DNA from: Planctomycetota bacterium
GTDB taxonomy: Bacteria > Planctomycetota > SZUA-567 > JAFGGJ01
Assembly: GCA_016930595.1 (NCBI GenBank)
Contig: JAFGGJ010000002.1
Coordinates: forward strand, 39,698-103,697
Length of the DNA stretch: 64,000 nt
Reading direction: 5' to 3'
The position numbers and the translations under genes were made by a program. Within the stretch, counting starts at the first letter, position 1, and every line of letters begins with the position of its first letter. The notes beneath the pieces were generated by a model. That model had not been told where the DNA came from and did no database searches. It saw nothing but the letters and a program-made list of their open reading frames with translations. Below, piece by piece: positions 18,758 to 33,200 of this stretch.

Positions 18758-21193
18758 ATGATTACGCGTACGTCTCTCTGTGGGCGCTGGGCGCTGGGCG
18801 GGACTGACCCGGGAGCCGGGGAAAGAAGGGGCTACCAGTCCGCTCCCGCCTGGGAAGCCTTCGATGCCCTTGTCCCCGGGGCCGTTCCCAACGACCTCGT
18901 AAAGGCGGGGCTTATTCCAGATCCGCGCTGGTGCAGGAATCCCGACGACGTTTCCTGGGTGGGACGGCGTGACTGGTGGCTTTTCAGGCGGTTTATCGCT
19001 CCGCCGGGCAGGCGCCACGCGCTTGTTTTTCACGGCGTTGACACTTTTGCGGAAGTCTTTATCGATGGCGAGCACGTTGCTTCGCTCGACAACCAGTTCG
19101 TTCCTCACGAAATTGACGTGACCGACCGCGTGAAGCCGGGCGTTGAGCATTCCATAAGCGTCAAGCTGGAAGCCCCCGAGCACGCCACGGCGAGGATTGC
19201 CGGCCGCCCGCTCAGTTTCTGCAACGGCTGGTACCACAGGCTTTACGCGCGCAAGGCACAGATGTCTTACGGCTGGGACTGGGCGCGCTACGTTCCCACG
19301 CTCGGGATACTGCGCCCCGTCGAAATCATCGGCGTTGACGGCCCCTCCGTTAAAGACGTCTGGATCAGGACGGTTTCCATCGACGGCGGTTCTGCTGTCA
19401 TCGAAATAGCCGCTGCCATAGACAACCCCGGCGATGAGCACCGCGTGGAAATCGAATTCTCAGCGGCCTCCGATACCGGCTCCCGGATTGCTTTCTCCGA
19501 CCTCGTCGTCCTTCAGTCGGGCATGACGGAATATTCAACGAGGATCGAAGTGAGAACCCCCGCCCTCTGGTGGCCTCTGGGATACGGTCGCCCTGCTTTG
19601 TACCGGGGTAATTTCTCCCTGCGCCGGCAGGATTCCCCCGTCGCCTCCATGCCGGTTTCGTTCGGCATCAGGCAGGTTGAACTCGTGCTCGAAAAGGACG
19701 GGTGCCGCACCTTCTTCTTCCGCATCAACGGCAGGGACGTGTTCTGCCAGGGCGCCAATTGGGTTCCCCTCGATGTCGAATTCACCTCTTCCGCCGAAAA
19801 ATACCGCGCCGCTTTCGAAATGCTCAAACATGCCAACCTGAACATGCTCCGTGTATGGGGCGGCGGTATCATCGAAGATCCTCTCTTCTACGACCTTGCC
19901 GATTCCAACGGCGTCATGCTCTGGCACGACATGATGTTCGCGTGCGGCGAATATCCCAGGGATGACGAGTTCAGGGACAAGGTCAAGGCCGAAGTCGCCC
20001 GCATAACGGCGAACCTCAGAAACCATCCATCTGTCGTGCTCTGGTGCGGCAACAATGAGAACGCGTGGCTCGAATCCGATCATCCCCTGTATACCGTCGA
20101 CCTCCCCGACGCCGTGCGCGGCTCCGACCCGGACAGGCCTTATTGGCCTTCCAGTCCCTATTCGCCGGACGGGATGCCGCCCAACTCACAGGATGCCGGC
20201 GATTGCCACGACTGGGCCTGCTGGCATGGGGCCAGGGGCCTGCCGGCGGTGGAAGAGAATCACTGCCTGTTCCTCAGCGAATACGGGTGTCAGGCCCCGC
20301 CGGACCTTGCCACGGTCAGACGTATCATCCCGGAACAGGACATCGGCCGCCTGGGTCCTTCATGGTCGCTCCGCATGGGCGTCGTTGAACTGCTCGCCTG
20401 CGTCGGTGCCCCCTGGATCGGCCACGCCCCCCGCGATATGCACCGGATGCTGAAAGCCATGTGGTGCGCCCAGCGTGAAATCGACTGCCGCGCCTACTAC
20501 CTGCATCGTTCCCGGATGCTTCGTGCCGACGGCGGTTCCGGCGGCGTCCTTGTCTGGGCGTTCGGCGAAGCCTGGCCCGCAGTCAACTGGTCCATCCTGG
20601 ACTATCTCATGCACCCCAAGGCCGCGTATTATGGTATCCGGCGCGCCTGCCGTTCCGTTTCCATGACCCACGTCGTCGACGGCGGCTCCGTAAGGACCAC
20701 CCTCAGCAACCAGTCTTCTGAAACCGTCCGGGGAGTCATGACTGTAAGGCTGTGCGATCTGAGCGGTGCCGCCCTTGCCGAAGCTTCCGCGGAAGTCGCG
20801 GCTTCACCGATGAGCGTCGCCGGAGGGCCCCGGCTGGATAACCCGGCCGGCGCGGTTGTCAGCGTTTTCTCTTTTGCTGTCGATGGAGCGGCCGTTAGCG
20901 ATCTTCAGTGGCTCGTGCCCGTGGCGACACAGGATCTCCCCGACGCTTCCCTCGCCGCAGAATGGCTGGACGACTTCACTCTCTCGGTTCGGAATGACGG
21001 CGGCTGCATCGCGAGAATGGTCCAGGTCCGGGACGAAGTCGGGTGCGGCGTGCTCTGGAACGACGATTCTTTCGATCTGCTGCCGGGTGAAGGTCGCTTT
21101 CTCGCGGGCCGTCTAATACCGGGGATGGCGCCTTATCGCCGTTCCCCGGTCCTGGTGTCAGCCGAGAACTGCGGGATGCGGAGGGTGACTTGA
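18758..21193 (+). CDS. GH2 beta-mannosidase-like glycoside hydrolase
   Basis: RKAQMSYGWDW, GANWVP, MLRVWGGG, WCGNNE, SEYG. Confidence 0.9.
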   Translation: MITRTSLCGRWALGGTDPGAGERRGYQSAPAWEAFDALVPGAVPNDLVKAGLIPDPRWCRNPDDVSWVGRRDWWLFRRFIAPPGRRHALVFHGVDTFAEVFIDGEHVASLDNQFVPHEIDVTDRVKPGVEHSISVKLEAPEHATARIAGRPLSFCNGWYHRLYARKAQMSYGWDWARYVPTLGILRPVEIIGVDGPSVKDVWIRTVSIDGGSAVIEIAAAIDNPGDEHRVEIEFSAASDTGSRIAFSDLVVLQSGMTEYSTRIEVRTPALWWPLGYGRPALYRGNFSLRRQDSPVASMPVSFGIRQVELVLEKDGCRTFFFRINGRDVFCQGANWVPLDVEFTSSAEKYRAAFEMLKHANLNMLRVWGGGIIEDPLFYDLADSNGVMLWHDMMFACGEYPRDDEFRDKVKAEVARITANLRNHPSVVLWCGNNENAWLESDHPLYTVDLPDAVRGSDPDRPYWPSSPYSPDGMPPNSQDAGDCHDWACWHGARGLPAVEENHCLFLSEYGCQAPPDLATVRRIIPEQDIGRLGPSWSLRMGVVELLACVGAPWIGHAPRDMHRMLKAMWCAQREIDCRAYYLHRSRMLRADGGSGGVLVWAFGEAWPAVNWSILDYLMHPKAAYYGIRRACRSVSMTHVVDGGSVRTTLSNQSSETVRGVMTVRLCDLSGAALAEASAEVAASPMSVAGGPRLDNPAGAVVSVFSFAVDGAAVSDLQWLVPVATQDLPDASLAAEWLDDFTLSVRNDGGCIARMVQVRDEVGCGVLWNDDSFDLLPGEGRFLAGRLIPGMAPYRRSPVLVSAENCGMRRVT

Positions 21194-23175
21194 CTGTTGC
21201 ACGCGGCAGGTTGTGCATGGCAGGGTTTTTCCCCCTGGTAGTCTCTGCCTTCTTCCTGTTCCCGCAGGGTTGCGGCGGGCCACGAACGCGCCCCGCCGGG
21301 CCCGATACCGCCGAACTCGTACGGCTAAAAATGGCCGTCATCGGTAAGACCCTGGACGGCAATACCCTTGCCGAAAATGATCCCGCCTATATCAGCCCGC
21401 AGGACGCCCGCAGAAAGCTCGCGGAACTCCTGGGCGCACAGTCTCCTCCCGCGGGAGAACGGGAGGATCCCTCCCAACGGCAGCCCCTTCCCGAACCCTA
21501 TACGCCTCCTCCTGTTATCGATCTTGCCAGGTCCGCGCCCGTAAGGATCTCGGTCGCGGATGCTTCCGGCAGGTCGTGCCCCTTTCTTCTCAATGTCCAG
21601 GCTGCAGGTATGAATATCCTGCCGGGCCCTTCCGGTCATGGCGAGTACCACCGGGGGGCACACAGCTTCAGAGTGCCCGTGGGGCCCGTCCGTATCGAAG
21701 TCCGCGGGGGGCATTTCCGCCGGACTTTCGTATCCGAAGCGGTCGTCAAGCCGGGCGGCAGTCTCAAGTTGCGCGCTCGTCTTGAAAGCGGTCTCCTCAC
21801 GACCATCACCCGGCAGGGGTTTTCTCCCGCAAGGCTTCTTTTCCTTGGCGACGCTTCGGAGCGCTCCACCGATCTAGGGTCCATCGAACGGGTGTGGCAG
21901 ACGGCGATCCTGGCCGCGGAGCCGGGGGCGGGCGGCGACACGCTCACCGGTGCGGTCGCACCCTCCTGGCCGGGCTACGGTCGCCACCTTCTGCTCGGTG
22001 GCGACGGCCTTGCGGATATCTCCCGCACCTGGCGCAGTTCTGCCGGCAGCATGCCCGGCGGTCCTTTCCTGTCGGACAGCTCCGTTGCCTGGTCCGCCGT
22101 CATACTGCCCGGCTCCGGATCCCGCATGTTCAGTCCCAAGCGGGCCTACCTGCTCTGGCACGGCCTGAAAGAACGCTTCCCCACCGCCGGCCTTTTCGAA
22201 GAACTCCTCCCCGCGGAACTCCCGGTTCTCTACTCGGCCGGCCTTTCCAGGGCAGTGTGCGTCCCTCCCACGCCCGAAGGGCTCGGTCTTTTCGCACGCC
22301 TGTCTTCCGTCTACCCGGAATTGCTCCCCGCTCCGCCCGCTCCGTTGCCGGGCGAAGCTTTCCCCAATGTCCTTGTCTGGGGCCGGCCCGAATCCCCGGC
22401 CGACGCGCTCGATATCCTGAACAAGGGCGCATATTCCGTCTGCCACGGCATTTTCATCACCGCCTTGCTGGGCGGTCAGCCCCCTGGACCCGTGGAACCC
22501 CCCGCCGCGGGTACGCCTCTCTGGTTCGATATCAACGTCCTTACCGCAGCCCTGTCCGGTGCAGCCATCGATGAAGTCCTCGTGTACCGCAATTCCGAAG
22601 TCATCCATCGTGAACGGGGCCATCCCAACCAGACCAGCATGCGCATTACGGTTCCGGTTGCGGACCCAGGGCCCGCAAGGTATTGGGTGGCCGCCATGGG
22701 TCATGCCGCGGAATCCCCCCGCCTTCCCGTGCCGGGCGCAGCCCCCCGGGCTTTCCGGGATAACCTGCTCCTCGGCCTCACGGCCCCTTTTTCCCTCGGG
22801 CGCCCCGGCAGCCTCCTTCCACAGCCCCTGCAGGTCGTTGTCACGGTAAAGGACCTTGCTGGAAATCCGGTCAGGGATGCCGAGATCGTTGGTGGGGCGC
22901 AATCCGTCCGGACGGCCGCTGACGGCAGGGCTTCCGTCTTGTGGGCGCCGGGAAACAGGCTGCAGGTCCGTTGCGGTGATACCCTTACTCCCGTGGAGCC
23001 CTTTTTTGCGCCCGAGCTCTTCGAGCTTTACCAGGCCGCACACAGCGGCTCGATCGACTGGTCCGGCCCGGAATATGCCAACCGCGTCCGGACCGTGCTT
23101 GCTTCCAGGGCGTTCTCTGTAAGGCTTCCGCTTCGTCTCGAACAGGCTCAGAACCGCCCCTCAAAAACCCCTTGA
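21190..23175 (+). CDS. hypothetical exported protein or lipoprotein
   Basis: 661-aa ORF coupled to the GH2 stop; hydrophobic N-terminus ending QGC; Ig/beta-sandwich-like segments (VRISVADASG, VVVTVKDLAGNPV). Confidence 0.65.
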   Translation: MTVARGRLCMAGFFPLVVSAFFLFPQGCGGPRTRPAGPDTAELVRLKMAVIGKTLDGNTLAENDPAYISPQDARRKLAELLGAQSPPAGEREDPSQRQPLPEPYTPPPVIDLARSAPVRISVADASGRSCPFLLNVQAAGMNILPGPSGHGEYHRGAHSFRVPVGPVRIEVRGGHFRRTFVSEAVVKPGGSLKLRARLESGLLTTITRQGFSPARLLFLGDASERSTDLGSIERVWQTAILAAEPGAGGDTLTGAVAPSWPGYGRHLLLGGDGLADISRTWRSSAGSMPGGPFLSDSSVAWSAVILPGSGSRMFSPKRAYLLWHGLKERFPTAGLFEELLPAELPVLYSAGLSRAVCVPPTPEGLGLFARLSSVYPELLPAPPAPLPGEAFPNVLVWGRPESPADALDILNKGAYSVCHGIFITALLGGQPPGPVEPPAAGTPLWFDINVLTAALSGAAIDEVLVYRNSEVIHRERGHPNQTSMRITVPVADPGPARYWVAAMGHAAESPRLPVPGAAPRAFRDNLLLGLTAPFSLGRPGSLLPQPLQVVVTVKDLAGNPVRDAEIVGGAQSVRTAADGRASVLWAPGNRLQVRCGDTLTPVEPFFAPELFELYQAAHSGSIDWSGPEYANRVRTVLASRAFSVRLPLRLEQAQNRPSKTP

Positions 23176-23200
23176 CACGTTTCTCAGGCTCCCCTATAAT
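23172..23200 (+). promoter_or_regulatory. perfect-consensus sigma70 promoter
   Basis: TTGACA (23172-23177), 17 nt, TATAAT (23195-23200). Confidence 0.85.
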
Positions 23201-23247
23201 CTCAAAACCTGTGCTGGTGGTATTTTGGGCTTTCGGAAGGAGTGTTC

Positions 23248-23907
23248 ATGGGTGAGCCTGAGGATAGAAGCCTCGGCAGACTCCTCGTTGACGCCGGCCT
23301 CATTACGCCCAAACAGCTCGAAGAAGCTCTGGCCTACCAGAAATCCATAGGCGGCAGGCTGGGGCGTATCCTCGTCAAGCTCGGCGCACTTATGGAAGAC
23401 AAACTCCTCCAGTTCGTCGCTGACCAGCAGGGCCTCGAAGTCATCAGCCTCAAGGGCTGGGAGCCCGATACCAAGCTTCTCAGCCTTGCTCCGCGGGATT
23501 TCTGGGAAAACCACGGCATTCTCCCCTATGCCGTTGAACATTCCACCCTCAAGGTCGCCATGAGCGACGCCAGCGATATCCCTGCCATCGATGACCTCCG
23601 CTTCACGACTTCCCTGGAAGTCGTCCCTGTCCTCGCCAGCGAACGCGAGCTTCAGACCCTCATCAACAAGCATTTCTATAAGGACGGCGAAGCCGCGTCC
23701 AGAAAACGCGCCCCCAGAGTCGATGTGCGCGATATCGCCAGGGAAGTCGAAGCAAGAGGCGCTGTTCGTGGTGAACGTGAACACATGCTTGCCGATTTGC
23801 TCAACACCAACCCGGCTCGTCTGGTCAAGGCCATGGCCTCCCTCCTTGTCAAGAAGGGCGTCCTGGACCCCGAAGACCTCTCAAGCGAGCTTGAAGAGAC
23901 TACTTGA
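23248..23907 (+). CDS. stand-alone MshEN/GspE-PilB N-terminal domain protein, no ATPase
   Basis: Two MshEN-type motifs SLGRLLVDAGLITPKQLEEALAYQ and RLGRILVKLG; LKVAMSD; C-terminal LLVKKGVL. Confidence 0.85.
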   Translation: MGEPEDRSLGRLLVDAGLITPKQLEEALAYQKSIGGRLGRILVKLGALMEDKLLQFVADQQGLEVISLKGWEPDTKLLSLAPRDFWENHGILPYAVEHSTLKVAMSDASDIPAIDDLRFTTSLEVVPVLASERELQTLINKHFYKDGEAASRKRAPRVDVRDIAREVEARGAVRGEREHMLADLLNTNPARLVKAMASLLVKKGVLDPEDLSSELEETT

Positions 23908-23927
23908 ACCGCTGATGGAGTGCTCGG

Positions 23928-24947
23928 ATGAAAACCGTCTCCTTTGAGCAGCTCTTGCAGGAAATAAACCAGGCGGTAGGGCCTTCCCCGCCGGGCGCCA
24001 GGCCCGTGCTTGAAGCCGCCGTCGAGCAGATTCGTGGCCACCTTGCCGCAGGTGAACCCGTCGAGCTTGCTTCCGATATCACGGTTCAGCCTTCCGCCGG
24101 CGTCGCCGTCGCAGAAGCGGCCGAAGGCAAGGTCTATAAGATCCTGCTCGTTGTCGGCGCCGTCGATTTCTTCACCAATACCATGGTCCAGCGCCTTACC
24201 GGCCCCCTTACCACCGTTGCCGTTGCTGAAGGTCCGGATGCCGCATGGAAAAAAGTTGAGTCCGACGATCCGGACCTCGTTATCATCGACAGTACCGTTG
24301 AACAGCCCCGCTCCCTGGTCTCCAGGATCAAGGAAACTCTCGGCACCAGCCTTATCGCCGTTCTCCTCATCTACCCCGAAGGCGCCGATCCGAACGCCGT
24401 GGCCGGCCTCAAGGCCTGTGAAGACGAAAGCCTCGTCGAGCCCTTTGAACTCGATGAGCTCGTTGGTCTTGTCGAAGATGAGCTTACGCGCAAGGAAGAA
24501 GAAGAAGCCTTCTTCGACCATGAAATACATTTCCAGCTCCAGACCGCCGAACAGCACGTTGAACAGGCCAACGACCTTATCGCACGCCTCGTCGACCAGG
24601 TGAAGATGTCTGACGAGAGCAAGGCCGCCGTCAGCGTCGCTTTTCGCGAAGCTATCGATAATGCCGCCAGGCACGGTAATAAAAATCAGGAAAACCGTAT
24701 CATTGACGTCATTTACCTGCTGGACAAGGAAAAGGCCACCATTACCGTTGAAGATGAGGGCGACGGTTTCGATACCGAAATGTTCATCACTCGCGGCCGC
24801 GAAGGTAACGCCGTCGCAGCCGCACGCGAAAGAAATCAGGCTGGCCGCGTCGGTGGTCTCGGTATCATGCTGATGCTCAAGTGTCTCGATGATCTTGAGT
24901 ATAACGCCGTGGGCAACCTCATAAAGCTTACGAAGTTTGTGGCGTGA
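23928..24947 (+). CDS. HU-like N-terminus plus atypical receiver plus RsbW/SpoIIAB-type anti-sigma kinase
   Basis: REC-like PDLVIID...VEPF; HATPase N box EAIDNAARHG, DEGDGFD, GGLGI, GN. Confidence 0.85.
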   Translation: MKTVSFEQLLQEINQAVGPSPPGARPVLEAAVEQIRGHLAAGEPVELASDITVQPSAGVAVAEAAEGKVYKILLVVGAVDFFTNTMVQRLTGPLTTVAVAEGPDAAWKKVESDDPDLVIIDSTVEQPRSLVSRIKETLGTSLIAVLLIYPEGADPNAVAGLKACEDESLVEPFELDELVGLVEDELTRKEEEEAFFDHEIHFQLQTAEQHVEQANDLIARLVDQVKMSDESKAAVSVAFREAIDNAARHGNKNQENRIIDVIYLLDKEKATITVEDEGDGFDTEMFITRGREGNAVAAARERNQAGRVGGLGIMLMLKCLDDLEYNAVGNLIKLTKFVA

Positions 24948-24969
24948 CCCCTCAGGAAGGACTTGCACA

Positions 24970-25974
24970 ATGGCTGCCATAGATTTCAAGGTCCGGAATG
25001 TCAAGAGCCCTGAGGGCGCTGCTGCCGCCGTTGCAGAAGTTACCGGCTCCATCGACGCTACTACCATCAACCAGTTCCAGACTATCATGGATAAGCTGGT
25101 GCAGAAGGGCGTCAAGAACCTCATGCTCGATTGCACCAATATCAAGTATATCAACTCCACGGGCCTTGGCACCCTCCTCAAGTACGTCGATACCTTCTCC
25201 GGTGTCGGCGGCAACCTGGTCTTCATTCGCGTGCCCAGCAAAGTCATGCTTGTCATGGAAATGCTCGGCTTCAACGCTCTCTTCAATATCTATGAAGAAG
25301 AAGACGATGCCCTCCAGTTCCTCGGTGCGAGCGGCGCCGTAGAGGAAGCCCCCGCCGAAGCCGTTGCCCCCGAAATGCCTTCCCTCCAGACCCCCGTCCC
25401 GGGGCCCGCTCCCGTTTCTCCCATCGCACCCGCACCCGCCCCGGTGGCCGCCGCTCCTCCGGCCGCCGTCCCCGCCAGGAAAGTTTCTTTTCCCCTCGAA
25501 GCCGAATGCTCGCGGTGCGGCCAGAAACTTGAAATACCCGGCGAAGGCACTTTCCGTTGCCCGCGCTGCGCCCAGATGTGCGCCGTCAACGGCTCCGGCT
25601 CCGTTGAATTCCCTGCCACAAGGCTTCCTGCGCCCGTAGAAGTCTCCGTCCCGGCCACCGCCGGCTTCGCAGGCGTAGTCGCCGCACTGGCGGAAGGGCT
25701 CGCCATTACCATCGGTCTCAACTCCGACAAGTCCCAGCAGATTCGTGAAGATATCGGCGGCATCATCTCCGCCATGGTTGAAAACTCCTACAGCGGCGAC
25801 GCCACCAGTGCCATCAATATCCTTCTCATGCCCAGCGAAACCGGCCTCCGTTCCGAAATCGTCGATAACGGCTCCGGCACGGATCTCAGCTCCATGCAGA
25901 CCGGCGCCGATGATGTCAGGGTTACGCCGCATCCTGTCAAGGGCAGTGTTTACGCCTTGCTCTACAACAAGTAG
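24970..25974 (+). CDS. STAS anti-anti-sigma factor plus Pro linker, Zn ribbon and degenerate RsbW-like domain
   Basis: GSIDA, LDCTNIKYINSTGLG (STAS phospho-Ser motif); CSRC...CPRC; C-terminal VENSY...IVDNGSG. Confidence 0.85.
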   Translation: MAAIDFKVRNVKSPEGAAAAVAEVTGSIDATTINQFQTIMDKLVQKGVKNLMLDCTNIKYINSTGLGTLLKYVDTFSGVGGNLVFIRVPSKVMLVMEMLGFNALFNIYEEEDDALQFLGASGAVEEAPAEAVAPEMPSLQTPVPGPAPVSPIAPAPAPVAAAPPAAVPARKVSFPLEAECSRCGQKLEIPGEGTFRCPRCAQMCAVNGSGSVEFPATRLPAPVEVSVPATAGFAGVVAALAEGLAITIGLNSDKSQQIREDIGGIISAMVENSYSGDATSAINILLMPSETGLRSEIVDNGSGTDLSSMQTGADDVRVTPHPVKGSVYALLYNK

Positions 25975-25992
25975 GCTTTCGGGAGATTGTGA

Positions 25993-27459
25993 ATGACACC
26001 TGCACCAAGTTCCCGCAGCGGTCGCGGAAAGCCCATCGGTGAAATCCTTCTCGAAAACGGCGCCATTCAGCCCGAACAGCTCGCCCGCGCCATCGCCGAA
26101 CAGAACGGTTCCTACGACCTCATCGGCCGTATCCTGATTAAGCAGGGCGCCTGCGGCCAAGCGGCTATCCTGGCGGCCCTTCAGGCCCAGTATCGTGTTA
26201 CCAACGTCGAGATCACCCGCGTCCCGCTCGATTCGGAAGCCATCTCCAAGGTCACTAAGGATATCTGTGAAAAAGGCCGCCTTATCCCCTTTGACCTCAT
26301 CGGAAGCACTATTTGTGTCGCCATGACGAACGTGCTGAACCGTAAGGGCATTAGCGCCGTCGAAGAAGCCAGTGATTGCAAGGTCAAGGCTTTCTCAGCC
26401 TCGTGGGTCGACATCAAGAAAGTTATCAAGGCTTACTTTGACGAAAGCGGCAAGGGTGTTCAGATATCTCAGCACGCCGACGGCGATGCCTTCGACCTCG
26501 TGGACGCGCCCGTCGCCGATTCGGAACCTTCCGTTGCTGCCGCCCCCGCTCCGCCGCCGCCCGCTGCTCCGCCTCCAGCGGCCAAGCCTGCCCCGGTTTC
26601 CGCTGCCCCGCCCCCCCCTCCGCCTCCAGTTGCTCCGCCCGCCCCTGCTCCGTCACCGGAAGCCGATGTTGCCGTCGTTCCTTTTGGCGGAAGCGGTGCC
26701 GGCAAGAAAAAGAAAAAACGCTCCGGCAAGCGCGATACCATGCGCATGCTCAAGGCCCAATTGATGAAGGACAAGGGCGAAGCCCCCAAGGCCGAAAAGC
26801 CCCAGCCGCCGTCCGCTCCTCCCAAGGAAGATATTGTCGTTCCCGCTGCTCCTCCCCCGCCTCCGCCGGTCTCCGCTCCCGCTCCTGTTGCCGAAGAGCC
26901 CGCTGCCGATGTGCCCGCTGGCGCCAAGCTCTCCGGTAGCGTCGTCTACCAGCCCGTTCCCGAATGGAGCGCCTACGGGGCGCCGCCCGCCGAAGGACTC
27001 GTGCCTTCCAGGCCTGCCTCGGATGACGCTGAGCCCGCTATAGTAAAGAAGCTTCGCGAAACCGGCCACAAGGGTTCCGCCGACCATGAAGTTCTTGATG
27101 CTCTGCCCGTCGGCGAGCTCTTTGCCCCGTCCCTGGACGACTACAAAGTCACGGTTTCCGCCCTCGCCGCCCTTGAAGATGTCGTCATCGAAGAAGAACC
27201 TCTGGCGCCGCCTGAGCCCGAACCAGCCCCCGAACCCGAACCGCTGGAACTCAAACCTGCTCCCACTCCCCAGCCGGCCGCCCCCATGCCCACCATTGAA
27301 GCTCCGGTGGTTTCCGCAAGCCCCAAGATCCGGGCCGCCATCGCCGTTTCGCAGCAGGAATCCGTCGCGCTGGCGCCGCGTGAAGGCGAAGACCGCGAAG
27401 CCTCTTTCCGCTCCAGGTTCCTCTCTTCCAGGGTCGTCAAGGCCGTGGCGGTCGAATAA
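25993..27459 (+). CDS. MshEN/GspE N-terminal domain protein with long Pro-rich tail, no ATPase
   Basis: PIGEILLENGAI...LARAIAEQ, LIGRILIKQG, LIPF, VAMTN; the rest is Pro/Ala/Glu low-complexity with a KKKKKR patch. Confidence 0.8.
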   Translation: MTPAPSSRSGRGKPIGEILLENGAIQPEQLARAIAEQNGSYDLIGRILIKQGACGQAAILAALQAQYRVTNVEITRVPLDSEAISKVTKDICEKGRLIPFDLIGSTICVAMTNVLNRKGISAVEEASDCKVKAFSASWVDIKKVIKAYFDESGKGVQISQHADGDAFDLVDAPVADSEPSVAAAPAPPPPAAPPPAAKPAPVSAAPPPPPPPVAPPAPAPSPEADVAVVPFGGSGAGKKKKKRSGKRDTMRMLKAQLMKDKGEAPKAEKPQPPSAPPKEDIVVPAAPPPPPPVSAPAPVAEEPAADVPAGAKLSGSVVYQPVPEWSAYGAPPAEGLVPSRPASDDAEPAIVKKLRETGHKGSADHEVLDALPVGELFAPSLDDYKVTVSALAALEDVVIEEEPLAPPEPEPAPEPEPLELKPAPTPQPAAPMPTIEAPVVSASPKIRAAIAVSQQESVALAPREGEDREASFRSRFLSSRVVKAVAVE

Positions 27460-27475
27460 CCTTTCCCCGTTCCGC

Positions 27476-27504
27476 TTGACCACTCACGCCTTTTGTGTTA
27501 TATT
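27476..27504 (+). promoter_or_regulatory. sigma70 promoter of the tRNA pair
   Basis: TTGACC-17 nt-TATATT with extended -10 TG. Confidence 0.75.
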
Positions 27505-27531
27505 CTTTCTGCTTTCCATTAGATGCAAGGC

Positions 27532-27605
27532 TGCCCTGTCGTCTAATGGTAGGACGCCTGACTCTGGATCAGGTAGTCTACGTTCGAATCGTAGCAGGGC
27601 AGCCA
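27532..27605 (+). tRNA. tRNA-Gln (anticodon CTG)
   Basis: Acceptor TGCCCTG/CAGGGCA; anticodon stem CCTGA/TCAGG with loop CTCTGGA; T arm CTACG-TTCGAAT-CGTAG; encoded CCA. Confidence 0.96.
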
Positions 27606-27618
27606 GTAATGCCCGGGT

Positions 27619-27696
27619 GTCCCCATCGTCTAGCCCGGCCCAGGACGGTAGGTTCTCAGCCTACAAACCGGGGTTCGAATCCCCGTGGGGATACCA
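27619..27696 (+). tRNA. tRNA-Glu (anticodon CTC)
   Basis: Acceptor GTCCCCA/TGGGGAT; anticodon stem GTAGG/CCTAC with loop TTCTCAG; T arm CGGGG-TTCGAAT-CCCCG; encoded CCA. Confidence 0.95.
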
Positions 27697-27820
27697 TTCC
27701 TTTCAGCAGCTCCTGCCTTTTTGGGAATTTTCCACGGTTAGCCGTTGTGAATGATCTCCAAGACCCTATCATGCCGCGCGAGGCCGCGGCATGTTCGGCC
27801 TTACGGCAGGAGACCTGGAC

Positions 27821-30139
27821 ATGAAGATTTCTTCCCATGCTGAACCTGATTTTGAAACGGCCTGTTCCTGGTGGAACGATCTTCCCGCCGTCTGGACCCC
27901 CGTCGGCTGGCCCGACCATCTCTTTCGCTTCAACGTGTTCTGGAACGGCATGATCCTCGCTCAGCCTGACGTCAACCGCCGTACCCAGGCATGGAACGGC
28001 CTCGGCGTGCAGGTTGCTTTCATCCCCCACTTCACACCCGATGTCGCAGCCAATCTCTACGCCTATCTCCGCCAGGATGACGGCATGGTGACCCAGGGCT
28101 GGCTGGATCACGACGCTCCCGTCCTCTGGTCCGAATGGCCCAAGGACGGTGTCCTTTACAGGCACCAGGTCTTCGCCCACGTCCCCGGCGGCGGCGCCAT
28201 CGCTTCGGGCGATGAACCCCTTTTCGCCTGGGTCAGGCTCATTCTCGAAGACACCTGTTCCGCACTTCCACTCGAAGACGTTTCCGGGTTCAACGTCATT
28301 ATCCAGGCGCCCCACGTCTCCACGCGCATGTCCATGCGCGATAACGTGATCTTTATGTACGGACAGATGGACTATCCCCGTGCCCTTGCCCCGGATTCCG
28401 ACGCTTATGACGGCTCCTCAGCCTTCCGCCTTCTTGAAGACGGCGGCAAAGTCAGGATGGGCCTTCCCCGGGGACAGAACTGCCGCGTCGTTTTCAATCC
28501 CCCGGAATCCGATGAGTCCAAACCTTACCGGCAGAGGCAGCCTTGGTACCGCCTGCATGTCGGCCTTGACACCCTGAAAGGTGCCCACGCGGACCTCCTT
28601 ATCCCCATGCTTCCCTGCGACAGGGACGTTTTCGACCGTGAACTTGCACTCGGCTTCGACGCCGCGCTCGCTGAAGCCGACGCTTTCTGGGGCCGTACGC
28701 CCCATACCGCCGCTTCCGTCTCCGTTCCGGAGACTTTCATCGCAGGGGCTTTCAGGCACAGCGTCCGTCTCAGTCGCGTCATCTCGGAAACGGATCCAGC
28801 CACCGGCTACCGCTGCAAGCTCAGCGGCTCCTTCACCTACGCCGATCTCTGGACCACGCCGATGGCCATGGACCTCACCATGATGATGGACGTCCTCGGC
28901 TGGCACGATACCGTTGCGGGTTACCTGGATGTCTTCAAGCGGGAACAGGGTACCGTAAAACCCCCCGGTTCCGCATATCCCATGCACCCGGGGTATCTCA
29001 GCACTCCGGCGGCCTACAAGTCCGTTGACTGGTTATCCGACAACGGCGCCGTCCTCTACACCATCTGCGAACATGCCCTGTTGTCCGGCGACGAAGCCTT
29101 CGCATCGCGCTTCCTCGATACCGTCATCCACTCGTGCGAGTGGATAAGAGACGCCCGTTCCATCACCGGCCACGGCGGCTTCGAAAAGATTCTGCCTCCC
29201 GCCGTCGCCACTGACAGGGGCACCGAGATCCAGTCCGTCTGGGCCGCCGGCTGGAACTTCAAGGGCCTTGCCGCCGCCGTCAGGCTCCTCAGGCGCCTTG
29301 ATCACCCGCGCGCGGATGAATTCAGCGCCGAAGCCGCCTCGTACAAGGCCGACTTTGTCAAGGCGCTGCGTCTCAAGTGCGCGCACATGCCTTCCTGGAC
29401 CGACGAAGCCGGCGTCTCCCATGTGTTTGTCCCGACGGCCCTTCACGGCGACGCAAAGGACGAAAGCCGCCACGCCTTCTACCTCGACGCGGGCCCTCTC
29501 TTCCTCGTCTTCTCCGGCCTCATGGACGCGTCCGACGTTCTTGTCCAGGACGCCCTGGCGTGGTTCCGTCACGGTCCCCAGAGGAAATTCTGCAGGCATG
29601 ATTCCAATTGCTGGCAGGTCCCCGTCCTCGATCACGAAATTTCCTCCTGCGAGCCGTGCTATTCCTGGAACGTCTTCATCAGTCACCAGGCGGCCGACCG
29701 CTGCAATTTCCTCGAAGGCATGTACAGCCTCTTTGCAGGCTCCCTTTCCCGTAAGACCTTCGTTTCCTGCGAGACTCGCGGCGGGGTCACGGGCAATGTC
29801 TTTTCGGCGCCGCTCGCCGTTTTCCTGGCTCGCCTCGCCGTCATCGATGACCAGGTCGAAGAGAATGCTCTGCATCTCCTCCGTCTTATGCCCTCTGCAT
29901 GGCTCCGCCCCGGCGCGAATTCCTCTTTCGATAATATGCCCACGGAATTCGGCCCCGTCACCCTTTCGACCGCCGTGTCCTCCGACGGCTCCCGCCTCGA
30001 CGTCTCCTTCGACACGGCCTTCAGGCATGCTCCCGCGGGCGTCTTCCTCCACGTGCCTCCTCCCGCCTCCGGAGCGGACGTCTTCGTCAACGGCGCTCCG
30101 GCGCGGCCGGCCGGCGGTTCCGGACTCGTCCGGTTGTGA
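27821..30139 (+). CDS. hypothetical protein, likely (alpha/alpha)6 six-hairpin glycosidase-like
   Basis: 772 aa; AGGAG RBS; WxSDNGAVL..I.EH..L.GD; C-terminal LHLLRLMPSAWL...PTEFGPV as in GH95/GH78-like barrels. Confidence 0.6.
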   Translation: MKISSHAEPDFETACSWWNDLPAVWTPVGWPDHLFRFNVFWNGMILAQPDVNRRTQAWNGLGVQVAFIPHFTPDVAANLYAYLRQDDGMVTQGWLDHDAPVLWSEWPKDGVLYRHQVFAHVPGGGAIASGDEPLFAWVRLILEDTCSALPLEDVSGFNVIIQAPHVSTRMSMRDNVIFMYGQMDYPRALAPDSDAYDGSSAFRLLEDGGKVRMGLPRGQNCRVVFNPPESDESKPYRQRQPWYRLHVGLDTLKGAHADLLIPMLPCDRDVFDRELALGFDAALAEADAFWGRTPHTAASVSVPETFIAGAFRHSVRLSRVISETDPATGYRCKLSGSFTYADLWTTPMAMDLTMMMDVLGWHDTVAGYLDVFKREQGTVKPPGSAYPMHPGYLSTPAAYKSVDWLSDNGAVLYTICEHALLSGDEAFASRFLDTVIHSCEWIRDARSITGHGGFEKILPPAVATDRGTEIQSVWAAGWNFKGLAAAVRLLRRLDHPRADEFSAEAASYKADFVKALRLKCAHMPSWTDEAGVSHVFVPTALHGDAKDESRHAFYLDAGPLFLVFSGLMDASDVLVQDALAWFRHGPQRKFCRHDSNCWQVPVLDHEISSCEPCYSWNVFISHQAADRCNFLEGMYSLFAGSLSRKTFVSCETRGGVTGNVFSAPLAVFLARLAVIDDQVEENALHLLRLMPSAWLRPGANSSFDNMPTEFGPVTLSTAVSSDGSRLDVSFDTAFRHAPAGVFLHVPPPASGADVFVNGAPARPAGGSGLVRL

Positions 30140-30202: not shown

Positions 30203-30223
30203 GTTTTTCGGGAGGTGCTTGCT

Positions 30224-33200
30224 TTGGCGCGGGATTGCCCTCATTGCGGCGGGGAACTTCCGGGCCCTCCGGCTTCTCTTCCCGAATGCTGCCCTTTCTG
30301 CGGCGTTCCCCTCGCTTCACGCCCTTCTGATGAAACGATGTCCCTCGACCGCGCTGCTTCCGCGGCTTCCACGCTCGATGCCCCGGCCCGTTCCCGCCAG
30401 GCCCAAGAATTCCTCCGGACTTCCGTCGCGGGCCACAGGATTCTCGGTGAACTTGGACGCGGCGGCATGGGCCTTGTCTTCCTCGCGCACGAACCCGGTC
30501 TCGAACGGCCCGTGGCGCTCAAACTCGTTGATCCGGACCTCGCCGGTCCCCCCTCCCCGGGCGATTCCTCCGCTTACCTCTTCCGCTTCACCGAAGAAGC
30601 CCGCATCACCGGCCGGCTCCAGCATCCCGGCATCGTCCCAGTCTACCGCATGGGTTCCGACGAGGACGGCCGCTGTTTCTACACGATGCGCCCCGTTACC
30701 GAAGGCAGAACCCTCAAGCAGATACTCCGCGAACTTGCCGATGGAGGGCCCGCCGCAGCGGAACGCTGGTCCGTCCGCCGCCTCGTTGAAATACTCCGCT
30801 CCGTCTGCCTTACCGTCGCCTACGCGCATCACTGCGGTGTCATTCACCGCGACCTCAAGCCCGCCAATATCGTCGTCGGCGATTATGGCGAAGTCCTCGT
30901 CATCGACTGGGGGCTCGCCAGGCCGTGCAATGCTCCTTCCACGGCGGAAGCCGACACTCTTTCTGCATCCGCAGCCGGCGTCCCATCTTCCGATCGCATC
31001 GGCGTCGTCTCGAAACGCGGCGATTTCCAGCTCACGCTCGACGGCGAGATCGTCGGCACCCCCGCCTACATGTCTCCCGAACAGTCCCGCGGCGACCTCG
31101 GCGCCGTCTCCACGGCTTCTGACGTCTATGCCCTCGGCGCCATCCTCTATGAAATGCTTGCCCTCTCTCCGCCTTTCATCGCCGACAATCTCGCGGATCT
31201 CCTTGCCGCCGTCGCCTCCGGCGACATTCAGCCGCCTTCCGAGCGTTCCCCATGGCGTGATATACCTGAAGACCTCGCAGCCGTTGCTCTCAAAGCCATG
31301 GCGAACGCACCCTCCGACCGTTTCGCGTCTGCGCGCCTCATGGCCGATACCCTGGGCAATTGGCTCGACGGCGTCAGCCGCTGGAGAATCGCCGAAAGAA
31401 TCGACCTCTCCTCCCCTGCCGCCGCTTCCTGCTTCATCAGCCTCGGCAGCTCCCGCCGCCGCTTCGCCGTCAGGGACGGCGTCGTCTGCCTGAACAGCGG
31501 CGAAATCACCCTCATCTATGACAGGCGTTTCTCCGGCTGGATGCGCATGTCCTGCACCGCCTGGTGTGAAGGCAGGCGGGCCACGGAATTGTCCCTTGTC
31601 CTCTGTGCCGCCTCTCCGGACCGCATCCGCCACGCGGGGGAAGACGGTTACTGTCTCCAGTTCGGCGGCAAGGATCTCACCTGCCTCAACTTCGCACGCC
31701 ATCAGCAGGATGTGCTCCATATCCCGGACGTCTGCCCCAGGCCCGGCAGGAAATACTCCCTAATGGCGCAGGTCCTTGACGGCGAAGTTTCTTTCCATGT
31801 CAACGGCGAAGAAATTGCCTGCTGGCGCGACCCTTCCCCCCTCTTTGGCGGCTACGTGGGCTTCTACGGTTTCGGCAGCGGCGCCCGTTTCAGCGACGTT
31901 GTCGTCCAGACGCTCGGCAAACCCACCCTCGTTTCCGTCCTCGAAACACCCGATGCCTATTTCAGCGACGGCCTCTTTTCCAGGGCGCTCGACATGTATT
32001 CCGAAATCAGCCGCTCTCATCCCCGCAGGATCGAAGGCCTGCGCGCCGCCTACAAGGCCGCTCTCTGCATGATGATGCTCGACGACGTCTCCGGTGCCGT
32101 CGCCGCCTTCCGCAGGATGCAGCAGAAACCCGCTTCCGTTCCCCTTGGCGTGCTCGGCCACGTCCAGCTCCTTGAACGCGTCCATGACGAAGCCGCGGCC
32201 TGCGACTTCCTCCTCTCGTGGGCGCGCGGCGTTGAAAATCCTTCGCCGGCCTGGGCCGAAGTCGCCGTTTTTGCCTTCGACCGGGCCAGGGCGCATGTCT
32301 CGCGCCCCGATGAATCCTCCTCGTCTCCTTTCTTCGACACTTGGTTCGAATCCGCCCTCAGGCTCGTACGTGATCGCGATGAACTTGCCGTACGCGCAAG
32401 TCCGCGGTATTTCAACCGCCTCCTTTCCCGTTGGATCCGGCACCGCGTCGTCGCCTTCGACCCCTCCCGGGCCGAATCTACCGGCGGCGCGCCGTCCATT
32501 GCCGAGCTCAAGGCGCTTTTCTTCTGGCCGTCTTTCGACGTCCGCCCCGGTATGTTTCTGGAATCGGCCGACGCCTTCCTCCGTCTCGGTCGCCCGGATG
32601 CCGCACGTCTCATTTTCAACGCCGTTTTCTCCTGGTACCCGGACAGGGCGGATCTGCGTTTTTCTGCCCTGAGCGGCATAGGCCGCTCCTTCGTCGGCAC
32701 CCTGCACCTTGACACTGGAATAAGCTTCTTCGAAAAAGCCGCTGAAGTCGACTCAGCTCCTCCCGGCAACGTCTTGACCGCTCTGGATTACTGTGCCGCC
32801 GCCTGCTCTTGTGCCGGCCGGTATGATAAAGCCCTCTCCTGTTACCGCAGGATCGTCGCAAAACGGCCCTGGGCCAGGGCGGCTTCCCGCAAAGCACTTC
32901 TCTCGATCGGTGACGTCCTCATGGCCGACGGCGATTACTCCGCCGCCTTCGAGTGGTTCGTGTCCGTTCCGGAACTTGCCAGGCACCACAAGACCGCTTC
33001 TGCCGCCGCGCATTCCGGAGCCGGGCTGGCCCTCATCATGATGGGTCGCCTTGATGATGCCAGGGACTGGTTCGAACGGCGCCTGTTCGACCGTTCGAGC
33101 CGAGGCGTCACGGAAACCGGCTGTGTCCGGGCCGCCGGGCTGCTTCGTTCCATCGGCCGCCACGCCGAAGCCCTCGAATACCTTGATGCCGTCCGCTCTG

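What the first reader, a model, noticed from the sequence alone, without database searches (positions are those of the whole stretch)
23172..27459. MshEN-flanked partner-switching operon: candidate c-di-GMP-coupled kinase/STAS switch
Seen: four tightly spaced co-oriented genes (MshEN-only; HU/REC/anti-sigma kinase; STAS/Zn/dead kinase; MshEN plus Pro tail). No sigma factor, PP2C phosphatase, or pilus/T2SS ATPase lies in the window. Known: MshEN (RLGxxLxxxGxIxxxxLxxxLxxQ) binds c-di-GMP, and RsbW/SpoIIAB kinases phosphorylate STAS proteins on the D/N-S-x-G serine. Inference: a signalling module linking c-di-GMP receptors to partner switching, whose output may not be a sigma factor. I do not recognise this combination as described.
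Basis: partly seen in the sequence, partly recalled or inferred. Interest (0 to 1): 0.75.

Follow-up and report, generated by a model that had tools for sequence, protein, structure and literature searches.

The report
Conserved four-gene planctomycete signalling operon
A four-gene operon kept intact in many uncultured Planctomycetota joins a protein kinase and its likely target protein to two relatives of a known c-di-GMP sensor domain, a combination not yet described and whose output is still unknown.

Summary
A 12/12 sigma-70 promoter (23172-23200) precedes four genes 18-22 nt apart: g1 (MshEN only), g2 (partial HU-like N-terminus, pseudo-receiver, intact RsbW/SpoIIAB-type kinase), g3 (STAS with the phospho-Ser, zinc ribbon, dead kinase fold) and g4 (MshEN plus a 318-aa Pro/Ala-rich tail).

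g2 and g3 are adjacent in 20 of 20 related loci, and 14 of 20 keep all four genes. g2 and g3 are present or absent together in 40 same-class relatives (27 both, 13 neither). Flanking genes differ between genomes.

In other Planctomycetota (Kuenenia included), a g3-like gene without the kinase sits back-to-back with a g4-like MshEN gene, beside tgt and a deaminase. The g3-type STAS/MshEN pairing is therefore phylum-wide.

c-di-GMP input is plausible but unproven. The window's g1 motif is near-canonical, many g1 orthologues are eroded, and g4 never has a basic residue at position 1 of motif II. No sigma factor, PP2C or pilus ATPase lies in the window.

Best reading: a partner-switching-type phospho-switch coupled to MshEN adaptor proteins, output unknown. 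Searches found no paper describing it. Earlier notes of this scan describe what looks like the g1-g2 pair on other DNA. New variant of a known kind.

The parts
23172..23200 (+). sigma-70-type promoter, TTGACA-17 nt-TATAAT; the -10 hexamer ends 48 nt before the g1 ATG
   Evidence: (12 of 12 matches; 4 sites in the region against 1.4 expected)
23248..23907 (+). g1: MshEN-only protein, 219 aa (ORF also open from GTG 23242). Tandem 24-residue c-di-GMP-type motifs at residues 8-31 and 37-60 (nt 23269-23427), with a conserved C-terminal helix.
23928..24947 (+). g2: RsbW/SpoIIAB-type Ser kinase, 339 aa. Partial HU-like N-terminus (residues 1-53), receiver-fold pseudo-REC (70-193), kinase domain (208-336) with invariant N, G1 and G2 boxes.
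24970..25974 (+). g3: STAS - disordered linker - zinc ribbon - dead Bergerat (RsbW-like) domain, 334 aa from ATG 24970 (ORF open from TTG 24937). Predicted phospho-acceptor Ser63 (Ser74 in TTG numbering) at nt 25156-25158; the four ribbon Cys lie within nt 25507-25569.
25993..27459 (+). g4: MshEN domain (motifs at residues 14-37 and 43-66; Pfam match 72-152) plus a 318-aa Pro/Ala-rich, net acidic tail that carries short conserved motifs and a conserved C-terminal motif.

Best explanation
The four genes form one promoter-driven operon encoding a self-contained phospho-switch of the partner-switching type, coupled to ATPase-less MshEN adaptor proteins.

Shown:
- g2 has every catalytic box of an RsbW/SpoIIAB Ser kinase.
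- g3 carries a STAS domain whose Ser aligns with the Ser of SpoIIAA's DSSG, fused to a zinc ribbon and a kinase fold that has lost its ATP boxes.
- g1 and g4 carry MshEN domains.
- The four genes stay together in variable genomic surroundings.
- g3-type STAS genes sit next to MshEN genes in three different gene arrangements.

Inferred:
- g2 phosphorylates g3 on Ser63.
- That phosphorylation state decides whether g3 is held by g2 or is free to bind the MshEN protein g4. g4 is its partner of longest standing, because a g3-like/g4-like pair exists without the kinase in other classes.
- g4's long disordered tail and C-terminal motif then recruit or release a target that is still unknown.
- g1 and the pseudo-receiver/HU form of g2 are an input layer added in this class.
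- g1, whose motif is near-canonical in this genome, may report c-di-GMP. The genome has four strong GGDEF matches.
- Dephosphorylation would come from one of five PP2C genes found elsewhere in the genome.
For: Operon structure: promoter, 18-22 nt gaps, Shine-Dalgarno-like sites.

Kinase intact: N box REAxDNAxRHG, G1 DxGxGFD and G2 GLG are invariant in 23 of 23 sequences. The g2 model has pLDDT 85.5 and hits SpoIIAB, RsbW and LvrC.

g3: YINSTG and four Cys are invariant in 20 of 20. Its Ser aligns with the first Ser of SpoIIAA DSSG, the same position where the two deposited SpoIIAA sequences differ, Ser versus Ala. The model (pLDDT 83.5) hits both SpoIIAA chains (TM 0.77-0.82) and RsbW/SpoIIAB chains (TM 0.67-0.87) (chain names).

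Synteny:
- g2-g3 adjacent in 20 of 20 loci, all four genes in 14 of 20.
- g2 and g3 co-occur in 27 and are both missing in 13 of 40 same-class relatives.
- Flanks vary, with no recurrent PP2C or pilus gene among 50 flanking ORFs from 15 loci.

Second arrangement: 46 of 80 loci hold a g3-like gene without g2. At least 38 of those have an MshEN gene on the opposite strand directly upstream: 32 counted by the script plus 6 hidden by over-long ORF calls (Pfam-confirmed in 2). These MshEN proteins share g4's layout.

Third arrangement: on contig C12 of the same genome.

c-di-GMP: NF053729 scores above its cut-off for both window proteins, and the genome has 5 GGDEF matches, 4 of them strong.
Against: No binding or phosphorylation was measured.

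The c-di-GMP motif is not conserved as a family trait. In g1 orthologues the motif Gly at position 3 is kept in only 13 of 18 (motif I) and 11 of 18 (motif II). g4 has Leu/Met/Val at position 1 of motif II in 20 of 20 and an invariant Cys at position 12.

g1 is missing from the block in 5 of 20 loci.

g4's likeness to the MshEN proteins of the second arrangement is mainly architectural. The g4 profile scores 33-71 bits on them, but their profile scores only 14.9 bits on the window's g4.

g2 resembles true anti-sigma factors, and 11 of 23 orthologues carry an HU/IHF-like domain, which would suit a DNA- or transcription-linked output.

Thirteen of 40 relatives lack the module, including five single-contig genomes, so it is not essential to the class.
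Confidence: 0.5

Rival explanations
1. Classical anti-sigma partner switching. g2 sequesters a sigma factor encoded elsewhere and g3 is its antagonist. The MshEN proteins only modulate this, or are unrelated passengers.
For: g2's kinase domain matches RsbW and SpoIIAB by sequence and by fold. Its whole-length best structural match is LvrC, a receiver-Bergerat protein proposed to be an anti-sigma factor (PMC13269768, passages read). The genome has 17 Sigma70_r2 matches. 11 of 23 orthologues carry an HU/IHF-like domain. One of 15 loci has a sigma gene in its flank.
Against: No sigma gene lies in the window or in 14 of 15 flanks examined. g3-like proteins stay paired with an MshEN gene in genomes where no kinase is adjacent. 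That is hard to explain if the MshEN proteins are passengers. g3's extra zinc ribbon and dead kinase fold have no role in the classical scheme.
Confidence: 0.2
2. The output is a PilB-type pilus or secretion ATPase. The ATPase-less MshEN proteins mimic or engage the N-terminal MshEN domain of such motors, and the kinase/STAS pair gates them.
For: In this genome, other MshEN-only genes lie inside pilus gene sets: PilC-PilB-MshEN-PilT on C30, and PilB-MshEN on C12. The C12 MshEN gene is back-to-back with a g3 paralogue, and a PP2C lies about 2.4 kb from the C30 MshEN-only gene. g1 and g4 match the N-terminus of the PilB model TIGR02538. An unchecked note of this scan reports STAS genes in front of a pilus ATPase in Pirellulales.
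Against: No pilus or T2SSE gene is in the window or in any of 15 flanks. The C12 arrangement has no orthologue in 40 relatives. The second arrangement sits among tRNA and rRNA modification genes, not pilus genes.
Confidence: 0.15
3. Same module, but blind to c-di-GMP: the MshEN domains serve only as protein-binding folds. This concerns the input only and can hold together with any of the readings above.
For: The motif is eroded in many orthologues, and g4 never has a basic residue at position 1 of motif II. As a strict pattern, even the published relaxed motif matches only 4 of 18 sequences in the g1 file (which holds 2 misfiled g4 genes) and 1 of 18 in the g4 file. Degenerate MshEN domains are known: XpsE is described as degenerate in the figure legend seen in PMC12943098.
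Against: The window's g1 has 1 and 0 mismatches. g4 keeps Gly3 and Gln24 invariant in both motifs. NF053729 matches 17 of 18 g1 and 20 of 20 g4 at E<=0.001. In V. cholerae MshEN, changes at Arg9, Asp12 and Gln32 shifted affinity by no more than about five-fold, whereas mutating any conserved hydrophobic residue cost more than ten-fold (PMC5013675, passages read).
Confidence: 0.4
4. Chance adjacency of unrelated signalling genes.
For: Planctomycete genomes are rich in these domains: this one has 9 MshEN, 14 STAS and 6 HATPase_c_2 matches above cut-off.
Against: Same order and strand in 14 of 20 loci across several families, with changing flanks. Presence and absence of g2 and g3 are identical in 40 relatives.
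Confidence: 0.02

Closest known systems
RsbW-RsbV and SpoIIAB-SpoIIAA partner switching of Bacillus
   Same: g2 has the kinase fold and all ATP boxes. g3's STAS has the Ser at the aligned position. The two genes are adjacent.
   Different: No sigma factor or PP2C gene in the operon. The kinase carries HU-like and pseudo-receiver domains. The antagonist is fused to a zinc ribbon and a dead kinase fold. Two MshEN genes flank the pair.
LvrC of Leptospira interrogans (PDB 9qih; PMC13269768, passages read)
   Same: Receiver fold followed by an RsbW-like Bergerat domain; best whole-length structural match of g2 (E 2e-12).
   Different: LvrC has a canonical receiver that is phosphorylated by LvrB. 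g2 lacks the acidic pair and has Glu in place of the conserved Lys. LvrC has no reported STAS or MshEN neighbours in the passages read.
MshE N-terminal domain of Vibrio cholerae, and MshEN fusions such as NfrB (PMC5013675, passages read)
   Same: Two 24-residue motifs with a 5-residue spacer, followed by the beta-rich subdomain. g1 and g4 pass the Pfam and NCBIfam cut-offs.
   Different: Here the domain stands without an ATPase or glycosyltransferase: alone in g1, or with a disordered tail in g4. The motif is partly eroded, and the genes are linked to a kinase/STAS pair.
Partner-switching systems with outputs other than a sigma factor: SypE-SypA of Vibrio fischeri (listing and abstract start only) and HsbR-HsbA-HsbD of Pseudomonas aeruginosa (recalled, not read here)
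   Same: An RsbW-type kinase and a STAS protein control something other than a sigma factor. The Pseudomonas system touches c-di-GMP through a diguanylate cyclase (recalled).
   Different: Those kinases are fused to a true receiver and a PP2C domain, and no MshEN protein or STAS-pseudokinase fusion is involved.
RsiG-sigma WhiG of Streptomyces (abstract start only)
   Same: c-di-GMP controls an anti-sigma-type protein complex.
   Different: Unrelated folds; the nucleotide glues anti-sigma to sigma. No kinase, STAS or MshEN.

Membership tests
MshEN c-di-GMP receptor domain (PF05157 / NF053729) | Sequence match above the curated cut-offs | tested here: met
   g1 scores 77.6 and 74.3 bits; g4 scores 29.5 and 47.2 bits; cut-offs are 23.1 and 38.
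MshEN c-di-GMP receptor domain (PF05157 / NF053729) | Two 24-residue motifs, 5-residue spacer, fitting the relaxed motif of PMC5013675 | tested here: inconclusive
   Window g1: 1 and 0 mismatches of 11 constrained positions. Window g4: 0 and 2. Orthologues: 0-5 mismatches. g4 motif II position 1 is never R/K/P/N.
MshEN c-di-GMP receptor domain (PF05157 / NF053729) | Binds c-di-GMP | not testable with these tools
   Needs ITC, DRaCALA or similar. The genome does encode GGDEF proteins.
RsbW/SpoIIAB-type anti-sigma Ser kinase (HATPase_c_2) | Bergerat fold with N, G1 and G2 boxes | tested here: met
   68 bits (cut-off 27.4). Boxes invariant in 23 of 23. Fold matches to SpoIIAB and RsbW.
RsbW/SpoIIAB-type anti-sigma Ser kinase (HATPase_c_2) | Binds and inhibits a sigma factor | not testable with these tools
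   No sigma gene in the window. One sigma gene in 1 of 15 flanks.
STAS anti-sigma antagonist (SpoIIAA/RsbV) | STAS fold with the phosphorylatable Ser | tested here: met
   54.5 bits. TIGR00377 55.3 bits against a 53.45 cut-off. The Ser aligns with the DSSG Ser. YINSTG invariant.
STAS anti-sigma antagonist (SpoIIAA/RsbV) | Single-domain protein of about 110-120 aa | tested here: not met
   334 aa, with linker, zinc ribbon and dead kinase fold.
Canonical partner-switching operon | PP2C phosphatase and target sigma factor encoded with the pair | tested here: not met
   None in the window. No PP2C in 15 flanks. Five PP2C genes elsewhere in the genome.
Response-regulator receiver (PF00072) | Acidic pair, phospho-acceptor Asp and conserved Lys | tested here: not met
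   Receiver fold, and Asp121 is invariant. There is no acidic pair, and Glu171 replaces the Lys. Pfam gives 17.5 bits, below the 30.2 cut-off. The residue roles are recalled knowledge of the family.
HU/IHF (PF00216) | Full HU fold, with match above the cut-off | tested here: inconclusive
   The window's copy scores 18 bits (cut-off 22.4) and covers profile positions 4-45 of 90. The best HU chain in the PDB scores E 0.78. 11 of 23 orthologues match, best E 7e-11.

The most novel reading that the evidence does not exclude
The g3-type STAS/pseudokinase protein and the g4-type MshEN/disordered-tail protein form a phylum-wide, sigma-independent switch. It is inherited vertically, next to tgt and tadA in most classes, and controls a core cell-biological process of Planctomycetota. 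The window's class has added a dedicated kinase (g2) and a c-di-GMP-sensing MshEN protein (g1). That would be the first case of c-di-GMP feeding a partner-switching step through an MshEN receptor.
Probability: 0.2. Interest if true: 0.8.

Novelty: new variant of a known kind. Interest (0 to 1): 0.6.

Why it matters
Partner switching and MshEN-type c-di-GMP sensing are each well studied, but no link between them was found in print. Here the link is written into gene order in three separate arrangements across a phylum whose signalling and cell biology are largely unexplored.

If g1 or g4 binds c-di-GMP, this would connect the second messenger to a Ser-phosphorylation switch by a new route. If they do not, the MshEN fold has been re-used as a protein adaptor, which matters for how 'c-di-GMP receptors' are counted from sequence.

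The STAS - zinc ribbon - dead kinase fusion is also an unnamed protein family. Its nearest atlas clusters are labelled hypothetical or simply STAS.

Tried and rejected
1. Complex prediction of g3 (residues 12-345) with g1 and g4 (residues 1-170), g3 as the scored partner: score 0.00, verdict 'no answer', controls not run. It counts neither for nor against binding. g4's tail and C-terminal motif were not in the job.

2. Public RNA data: no RNA holder listed for 23100-27600. The one DNA holder may be the source sample. No reads were laid.

3. A strict regular-expression scan for the motif was too brittle, so a position-by-position count replaced it.

4. A search for g1 elsewhere in 5 genomes whose block lacks it found 8-13 MshEN matches per genome, but none that includes g1's C-terminal helix. 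Inconclusive.

5. HU likeness of the window's g2 N-terminus against PDB sequences: not significant.

6. The C12 STAS paralogue as evidence for a conserved pilus link: rejected as lineage-specific.

7. The kinase next to the g3-like gene in genomes with the second arrangement: not adjacent. The nearest g2-like kinase there carries an FHA domain and lies beside an aconitase-family gene.

8. This scan's earlier notes by place and by sequence: nothing found.

9. The idea that tRNA-modification neighbours or the two tRNA genes after g4 indicate function: considered, and left as context only.
Full report
WHAT IS THERE

The window holds four co-oriented ORFs at the stated place. A perfect sigma-70-type promoter (TTGACA, 17 nt, TATAAT; 12 of 12) lies at 23172-23200, where the finding begins; 4 such sites occur in 21000-28500 against 1.4 expected from shuffles.

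With starts chosen from Shine-Dalgarno-like sequences and from orthologue N-termini, the genes are g1 23248-23907 (219 aa), g2 23928-24947 (339 aa), g3 24970-25974 (334 aa) and g4 25993-27459 (488 aa). They are separated by 20, 22 and 18 nt. Seventy-two bases after g4 come tRNA-Gln and tRNA-Glu, behind a promoter-like site of their own. So the block is a bounded operon.

ANATOMY

g1 is an MshEN protein: Pfam 77.6 bits against a 23.1 cut-off, and NCBIfam c-di-GMP motif model NF053729 74.3 bits against 38. It also has a conserved C-terminal helix.

g2 has a kinase domain of the RsbW/SpoIIAB type (HATPase_c_2, 68 bits). Its N box (REAxDNAxRHG), G1 box (DxGxGFD) and G2 box (GLG) are invariant in all 23 aligned orthologues. 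The model (pLDDT 85.5, pTM 0.71) shows two helices and a hairpin, then a receiver fold, then the kinase. The best whole-length match in the PDB is LvrC of Leptospira, followed by SpoIIAB, RsbW and many receivers.

The receiver part keeps the Asp at the phospho-acceptor position (Asp121). It has no acidic pair, and Glu171 stands where receivers have Lys (the roles of these residues are recalled family knowledge). I therefore call it a pseudo-receiver.

The HU call is weak for the window's copy: 18 bits, profile positions 4-45 of 90, and the best HU chain in the PDB scores E 0.78. It is real for the family: 11 of 23 orthologues match Bac_DNA_binding (best E 7e-11) and 8 of 23 match HU-HIG. The window's copy and its nearest relatives lack about 28 alignment columns of that domain.

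g3 has a STAS domain (54.5 bits). YINSTG is invariant in 20 of 20 sequences. Its Ser (Ser63 from ATG 24970) aligns with the first Ser of SpoIIAA's DSSG. That is the position at which the two deposited SpoIIAA sequences differ, Ser versus Ala. I recall this as the phospho-acceptor, mutated to trap the ATP complex.

After a disordered linker come four invariant Cys (CxxC...CPxC) on four short strands, then an alpha/beta domain. The model (pLDDT 83.5; pTM 0.44, so the domain arrangement is not fixed) matches SpoIIAA chains (1til_B, 1th8_B, TM 0.80-0.82). It also matches RsbW and SpoIIAB chains (6m36_A TM 0.85, 1th8_A 0.74, 1l0o_A 0.69) (chain names). Foldseek gives no ranges, so which domain matches which target is inferred from what the targets are, and from the NCBIfam RsbW match at residues 234-324. 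The N box is gone and the G1 box is reduced to one invariant Gly. This is a dead kinase fold.

g4 has an MshEN domain (29.5 bits; NF053729 47.2 bits) and a 318-residue tail with 21% Pro, 19% Ala and net charge -11. The tail holds short conserved motifs and a C-terminal motif with a nearly invariant Trp. The MshEN part has three invariant Cys.

CONSERVATION IN THE WINDOW'S CLASS

The g2 protein has a clear orthologue (E <= 2e-40) in 27 of 40 same-class relatives. The other 13 have weak matches or none, and include five single-contig genomes.

Around 20 of the orthologues I fetched about 6 kb on each side. g2 and g3 are adjacent in 20 of 20 loci. All four genes, in the same order and strand, are in 14 of 20. 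g1 is missing in 5, and g4 was not found in 1.

A g3-type query finds exactly one locus in the same 27 relatives and none in the same 13. So g2 and g3 share one presence/absence pattern; kin are not independent, so this is description, not statistics.

Of 72 flanking ORFs that the script listed from 15 loci, I scanned 50, leaving out mostly short or edge-cut ones. They encode CarB, MurD, oxidoreductases, sugar-nucleotide enzymes and other proteins that differ from locus to locus. There is no PP2C and no pilus ATPase; one sigma gene appears in one locus, and Hanks-type kinases in two. The four genes travel as a unit.

A SECOND, PHYLUM-WIDE ARRANGEMENT

A scan of one genome per species with the g3 alignment gave 114 confirmed relatives, of which the best 80 were kept. 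All are labelled Planctomycetota (including Kuenenia and Brocadiia) or unlabelled 'bacterium'. The search patterns came from planctomycete sequences, so absence elsewhere is not proven.

Thirty-four of the 80 carry the block: 18 with four genes, 1 with g4 split, 12 g2-g3-g4, and 3 g1-g2-g3, several of them at contig ends. Many are the same contigs as above, judged by length.

The other 46 hold a lower-scoring g3-like gene without g2. In 32 of them the script counted an MshEN gene of about 480-690 aa on the opposite strand directly upstream. In 6 more it is there but was masked by an over-long ORF call. Six have under 1.3 kb of upstream sequence, and two (L058, L089) have room but no match (MshEN confirmed by Pfam in 2 of 2 tested).

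These MshEN proteins share the layout of the g4 family: a basic MGxFGGKKK start (present in most g4 orthologues though not in the window's copy), the MshEN domain, an acidic disordered stretch, and a C-terminal ...P.xEEF...W motif. The g4 profile aligns end to end on several of them (33-71 bits). The reverse test is weak (14.9 bits on the window's g4), so I call this the same architecture, probably the same family.

Their surroundings are fixed: tgt in 6 of 6 and rlmH in 5 of 6 downstream of the MshEN gene, and a tadA-like deaminase in 3 of 3 after the g3-like gene. The ribbon Cys are absent from this group's consensus.

Genomes with this arrangement have one strong g2-like kinase elsewhere. 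It carries an FHA domain instead of the pseudo-receiver, lies beside an aconitase-family gene in 5 of 5 genomes, and has no MshEN or STAS neighbour.

Relatives of the window show no extra tgt-linked copy. The two arrangements therefore replace one another across lineages.

A THIRD ARRANGEMENT

On contig C12 of the same genome the order is a PilB-type ATPase, an MshEN-only gene of 300 aa, then, divergently, a 291-aa STAS - CxxC ribbon - C-terminal domain protein (124.5 bits on the g3 profile), followed by two glycosyltransferases. It has no orthologue in the 40 relatives, so it counts as one observation.

Another MshEN-only gene lies between PilB and PilT on C30, with a PP2C about 2.4 kb away.

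C-DI-GMP

[quoted passage not shown] It states that mutating any conserved hydrophobic residue lowered affinity more than ten-fold, while changes at Arg9, Asp12 and Gln32 changed it by no more than about five-fold.

Counted on the alignments:
- Window g1 has 1 mismatch (Ser at position 1) and 0.
- g1 orthologues have 0-4 and 0-5 mismatches, with Gly3 kept in 13 of 18 and 11 of 18.
- Window g4 has 0 and 2 mismatches.
- The g4 family keeps Gly3 and Leu6 in both motifs and Gln24 of motif II in 20 of 20 (Gln24 of motif I in 19 of 20). It has Leu/Met/Val at position 1 of motif II and Cys at position 12, both in 20 of 20.

NF053729 matches 17 of 18 g1 and 20 of 20 g4 at E <= 0.001. The genome has four strong GGDEF matches and one weak one. 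Binding is plausible for this genome's g1, open for g4, and not a conserved family trait of g1.

THE REST OF THE GENOME

The assembly (82% complete) has 9 MshEN, 14 STAS and 8 T2SSE matches, 6 HATPase_c_2 matches above cut-off, 5 SpoIIE-type PP2C and 17 Sigma70_r2 matches. None of the PP2C, sigma or T2SSE matches lies in the window. A paralogue with a true receiver joined to the same kinase type sits before a PP2C and an HDOD gene on C96.

HOW IT MOST LIKELY WORKS

Shown: an intact Ser kinase, a STAS substrate-like partner with the right Ser, two MshEN proteins, and gene linkage in three forms.

Inferred: g2 phosphorylates g3 Ser63. The phospho-state shifts g3 between g2 and an MshEN partner, most likely g4. 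g4's tail passes the state on to an unknown target. g1 and the pseudo-receiver/HU part of g2 are class-specific inputs, g1 perhaps for c-di-GMP. A PP2C from elsewhere resets the switch.

Rivals are a classical anti-sigma role for g2 with an unlinked sigma factor, an output on PilB-type motors, and a c-di-GMP-blind version of the same module.

COMPARISON AND NOVELTY

The parts belong to known families; the combination does not match any described system I could find.

- MshEN / STAS / anti-sigma, at least 2 of 3 terms: 336 papers, 20 listed, none joining MshEN to STAS.
- MshEN + partner-switching: 3 papers, listings and abstract starts only, none on such a module by title.
- MshEN + STAS: 6 papers, five of them word-start accidents in unrelated fields and one on Myxococcus PilB.

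Subscription journals are not covered by the library.

Earlier notes of this scan, which are unchecked AI leads, describe on other DNA an 'HU-fused RsbW-type kinase with MshEN partner' and a STAND-MshEN-receiver-kinase operon in Planctomycetota. Part of this module has therefore been seen before in the scan.

WHAT LED NOWHERE

The one complex job gave no answer. No RNA run holds the stretch.

Noticed in passing
window 27476-27696: tRNA-Gln (CTG) and tRNA-Glu (CTC) follow the operon 72 nt after the g4 stop, behind their own promoter-like site (TTGACC-17-TATATT, 10 of 12).
   Followed up: no
window 30215-33835: A 1206-aa Hanks-type Ser/Thr kinase with TPR repeats lies 2.7 kb downstream. A Pkinase gene also lies next to the block in L017 and near it in L039, and weak kinase-domain hits occur in L017, L018, L020 and L023. 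Planctomycetes have many such kinases, so this may be chance.
   Followed up: partly
window 18758-23175 and 27791-30139: A GH2-family glycosidase overlaps by 4 nt a 661-aa protein with no Pfam family, directly upstream of the promoter. A 782-aa protein with no Pfam family follows the tRNAs.
   Followed up: no
L113 (G000:C12:18000-28000): PilB-type ATPase, then a 300-aa MshEN-only gene, then divergently a 291-aa g3 paralogue (STAS, CxxC ribbon, C-terminal domain) and two GT4 glycosyltransferases. No orthologue of the paralogue was found in 40 relatives.
   Followed up: yes
L114 (G000:C30:27000-38000): PilC, PilB, a 189-aa MshEN-only gene and a PilT-like ATPase in a row. An oxidoreductase gene follows, then a divergent 276-aa PP2C phosphatase.
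   Followed up: partly
L115 (G000:C96:12000-19000): Der GTPase, then a true receiver + HATPase_c_2 kinase (285 aa), a PP2C and an HDOD protein in one direction: a paralogous module with a canonical receiver.
   Followed up: no
L116-L120: In five genomes with the tgt-linked arrangement, the kinase most like g2 is an FHA + HATPase_c_2 protein of 282-338 aa, beside an aconitase-family gene in 5 of 5.
   Followed up: partly
alignment A3 (g4 family), window g4 residues 54, 92, 108: Three Cys are invariant in the MshEN domain of all 20 g4 sequences. One of them sits at motif II position 12, where the published motif has a hydrophobic residue. A redox or metal role is conceivable.
   Followed up: no
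L089: In a Brocadiia MAG, the g3-like gene is followed by a small HATPase_c_2 kinase (189 aa) and a 129-aa STAS gene, and no MshEN gene was found upstream.
   Followed up: no
consensus of 16 g3-like proteins of the second arrangement: The ribbon region is kept but its four Cys are replaced, so zinc binding seems limited to the operon form and the C12 paralogue.
   Followed up: no
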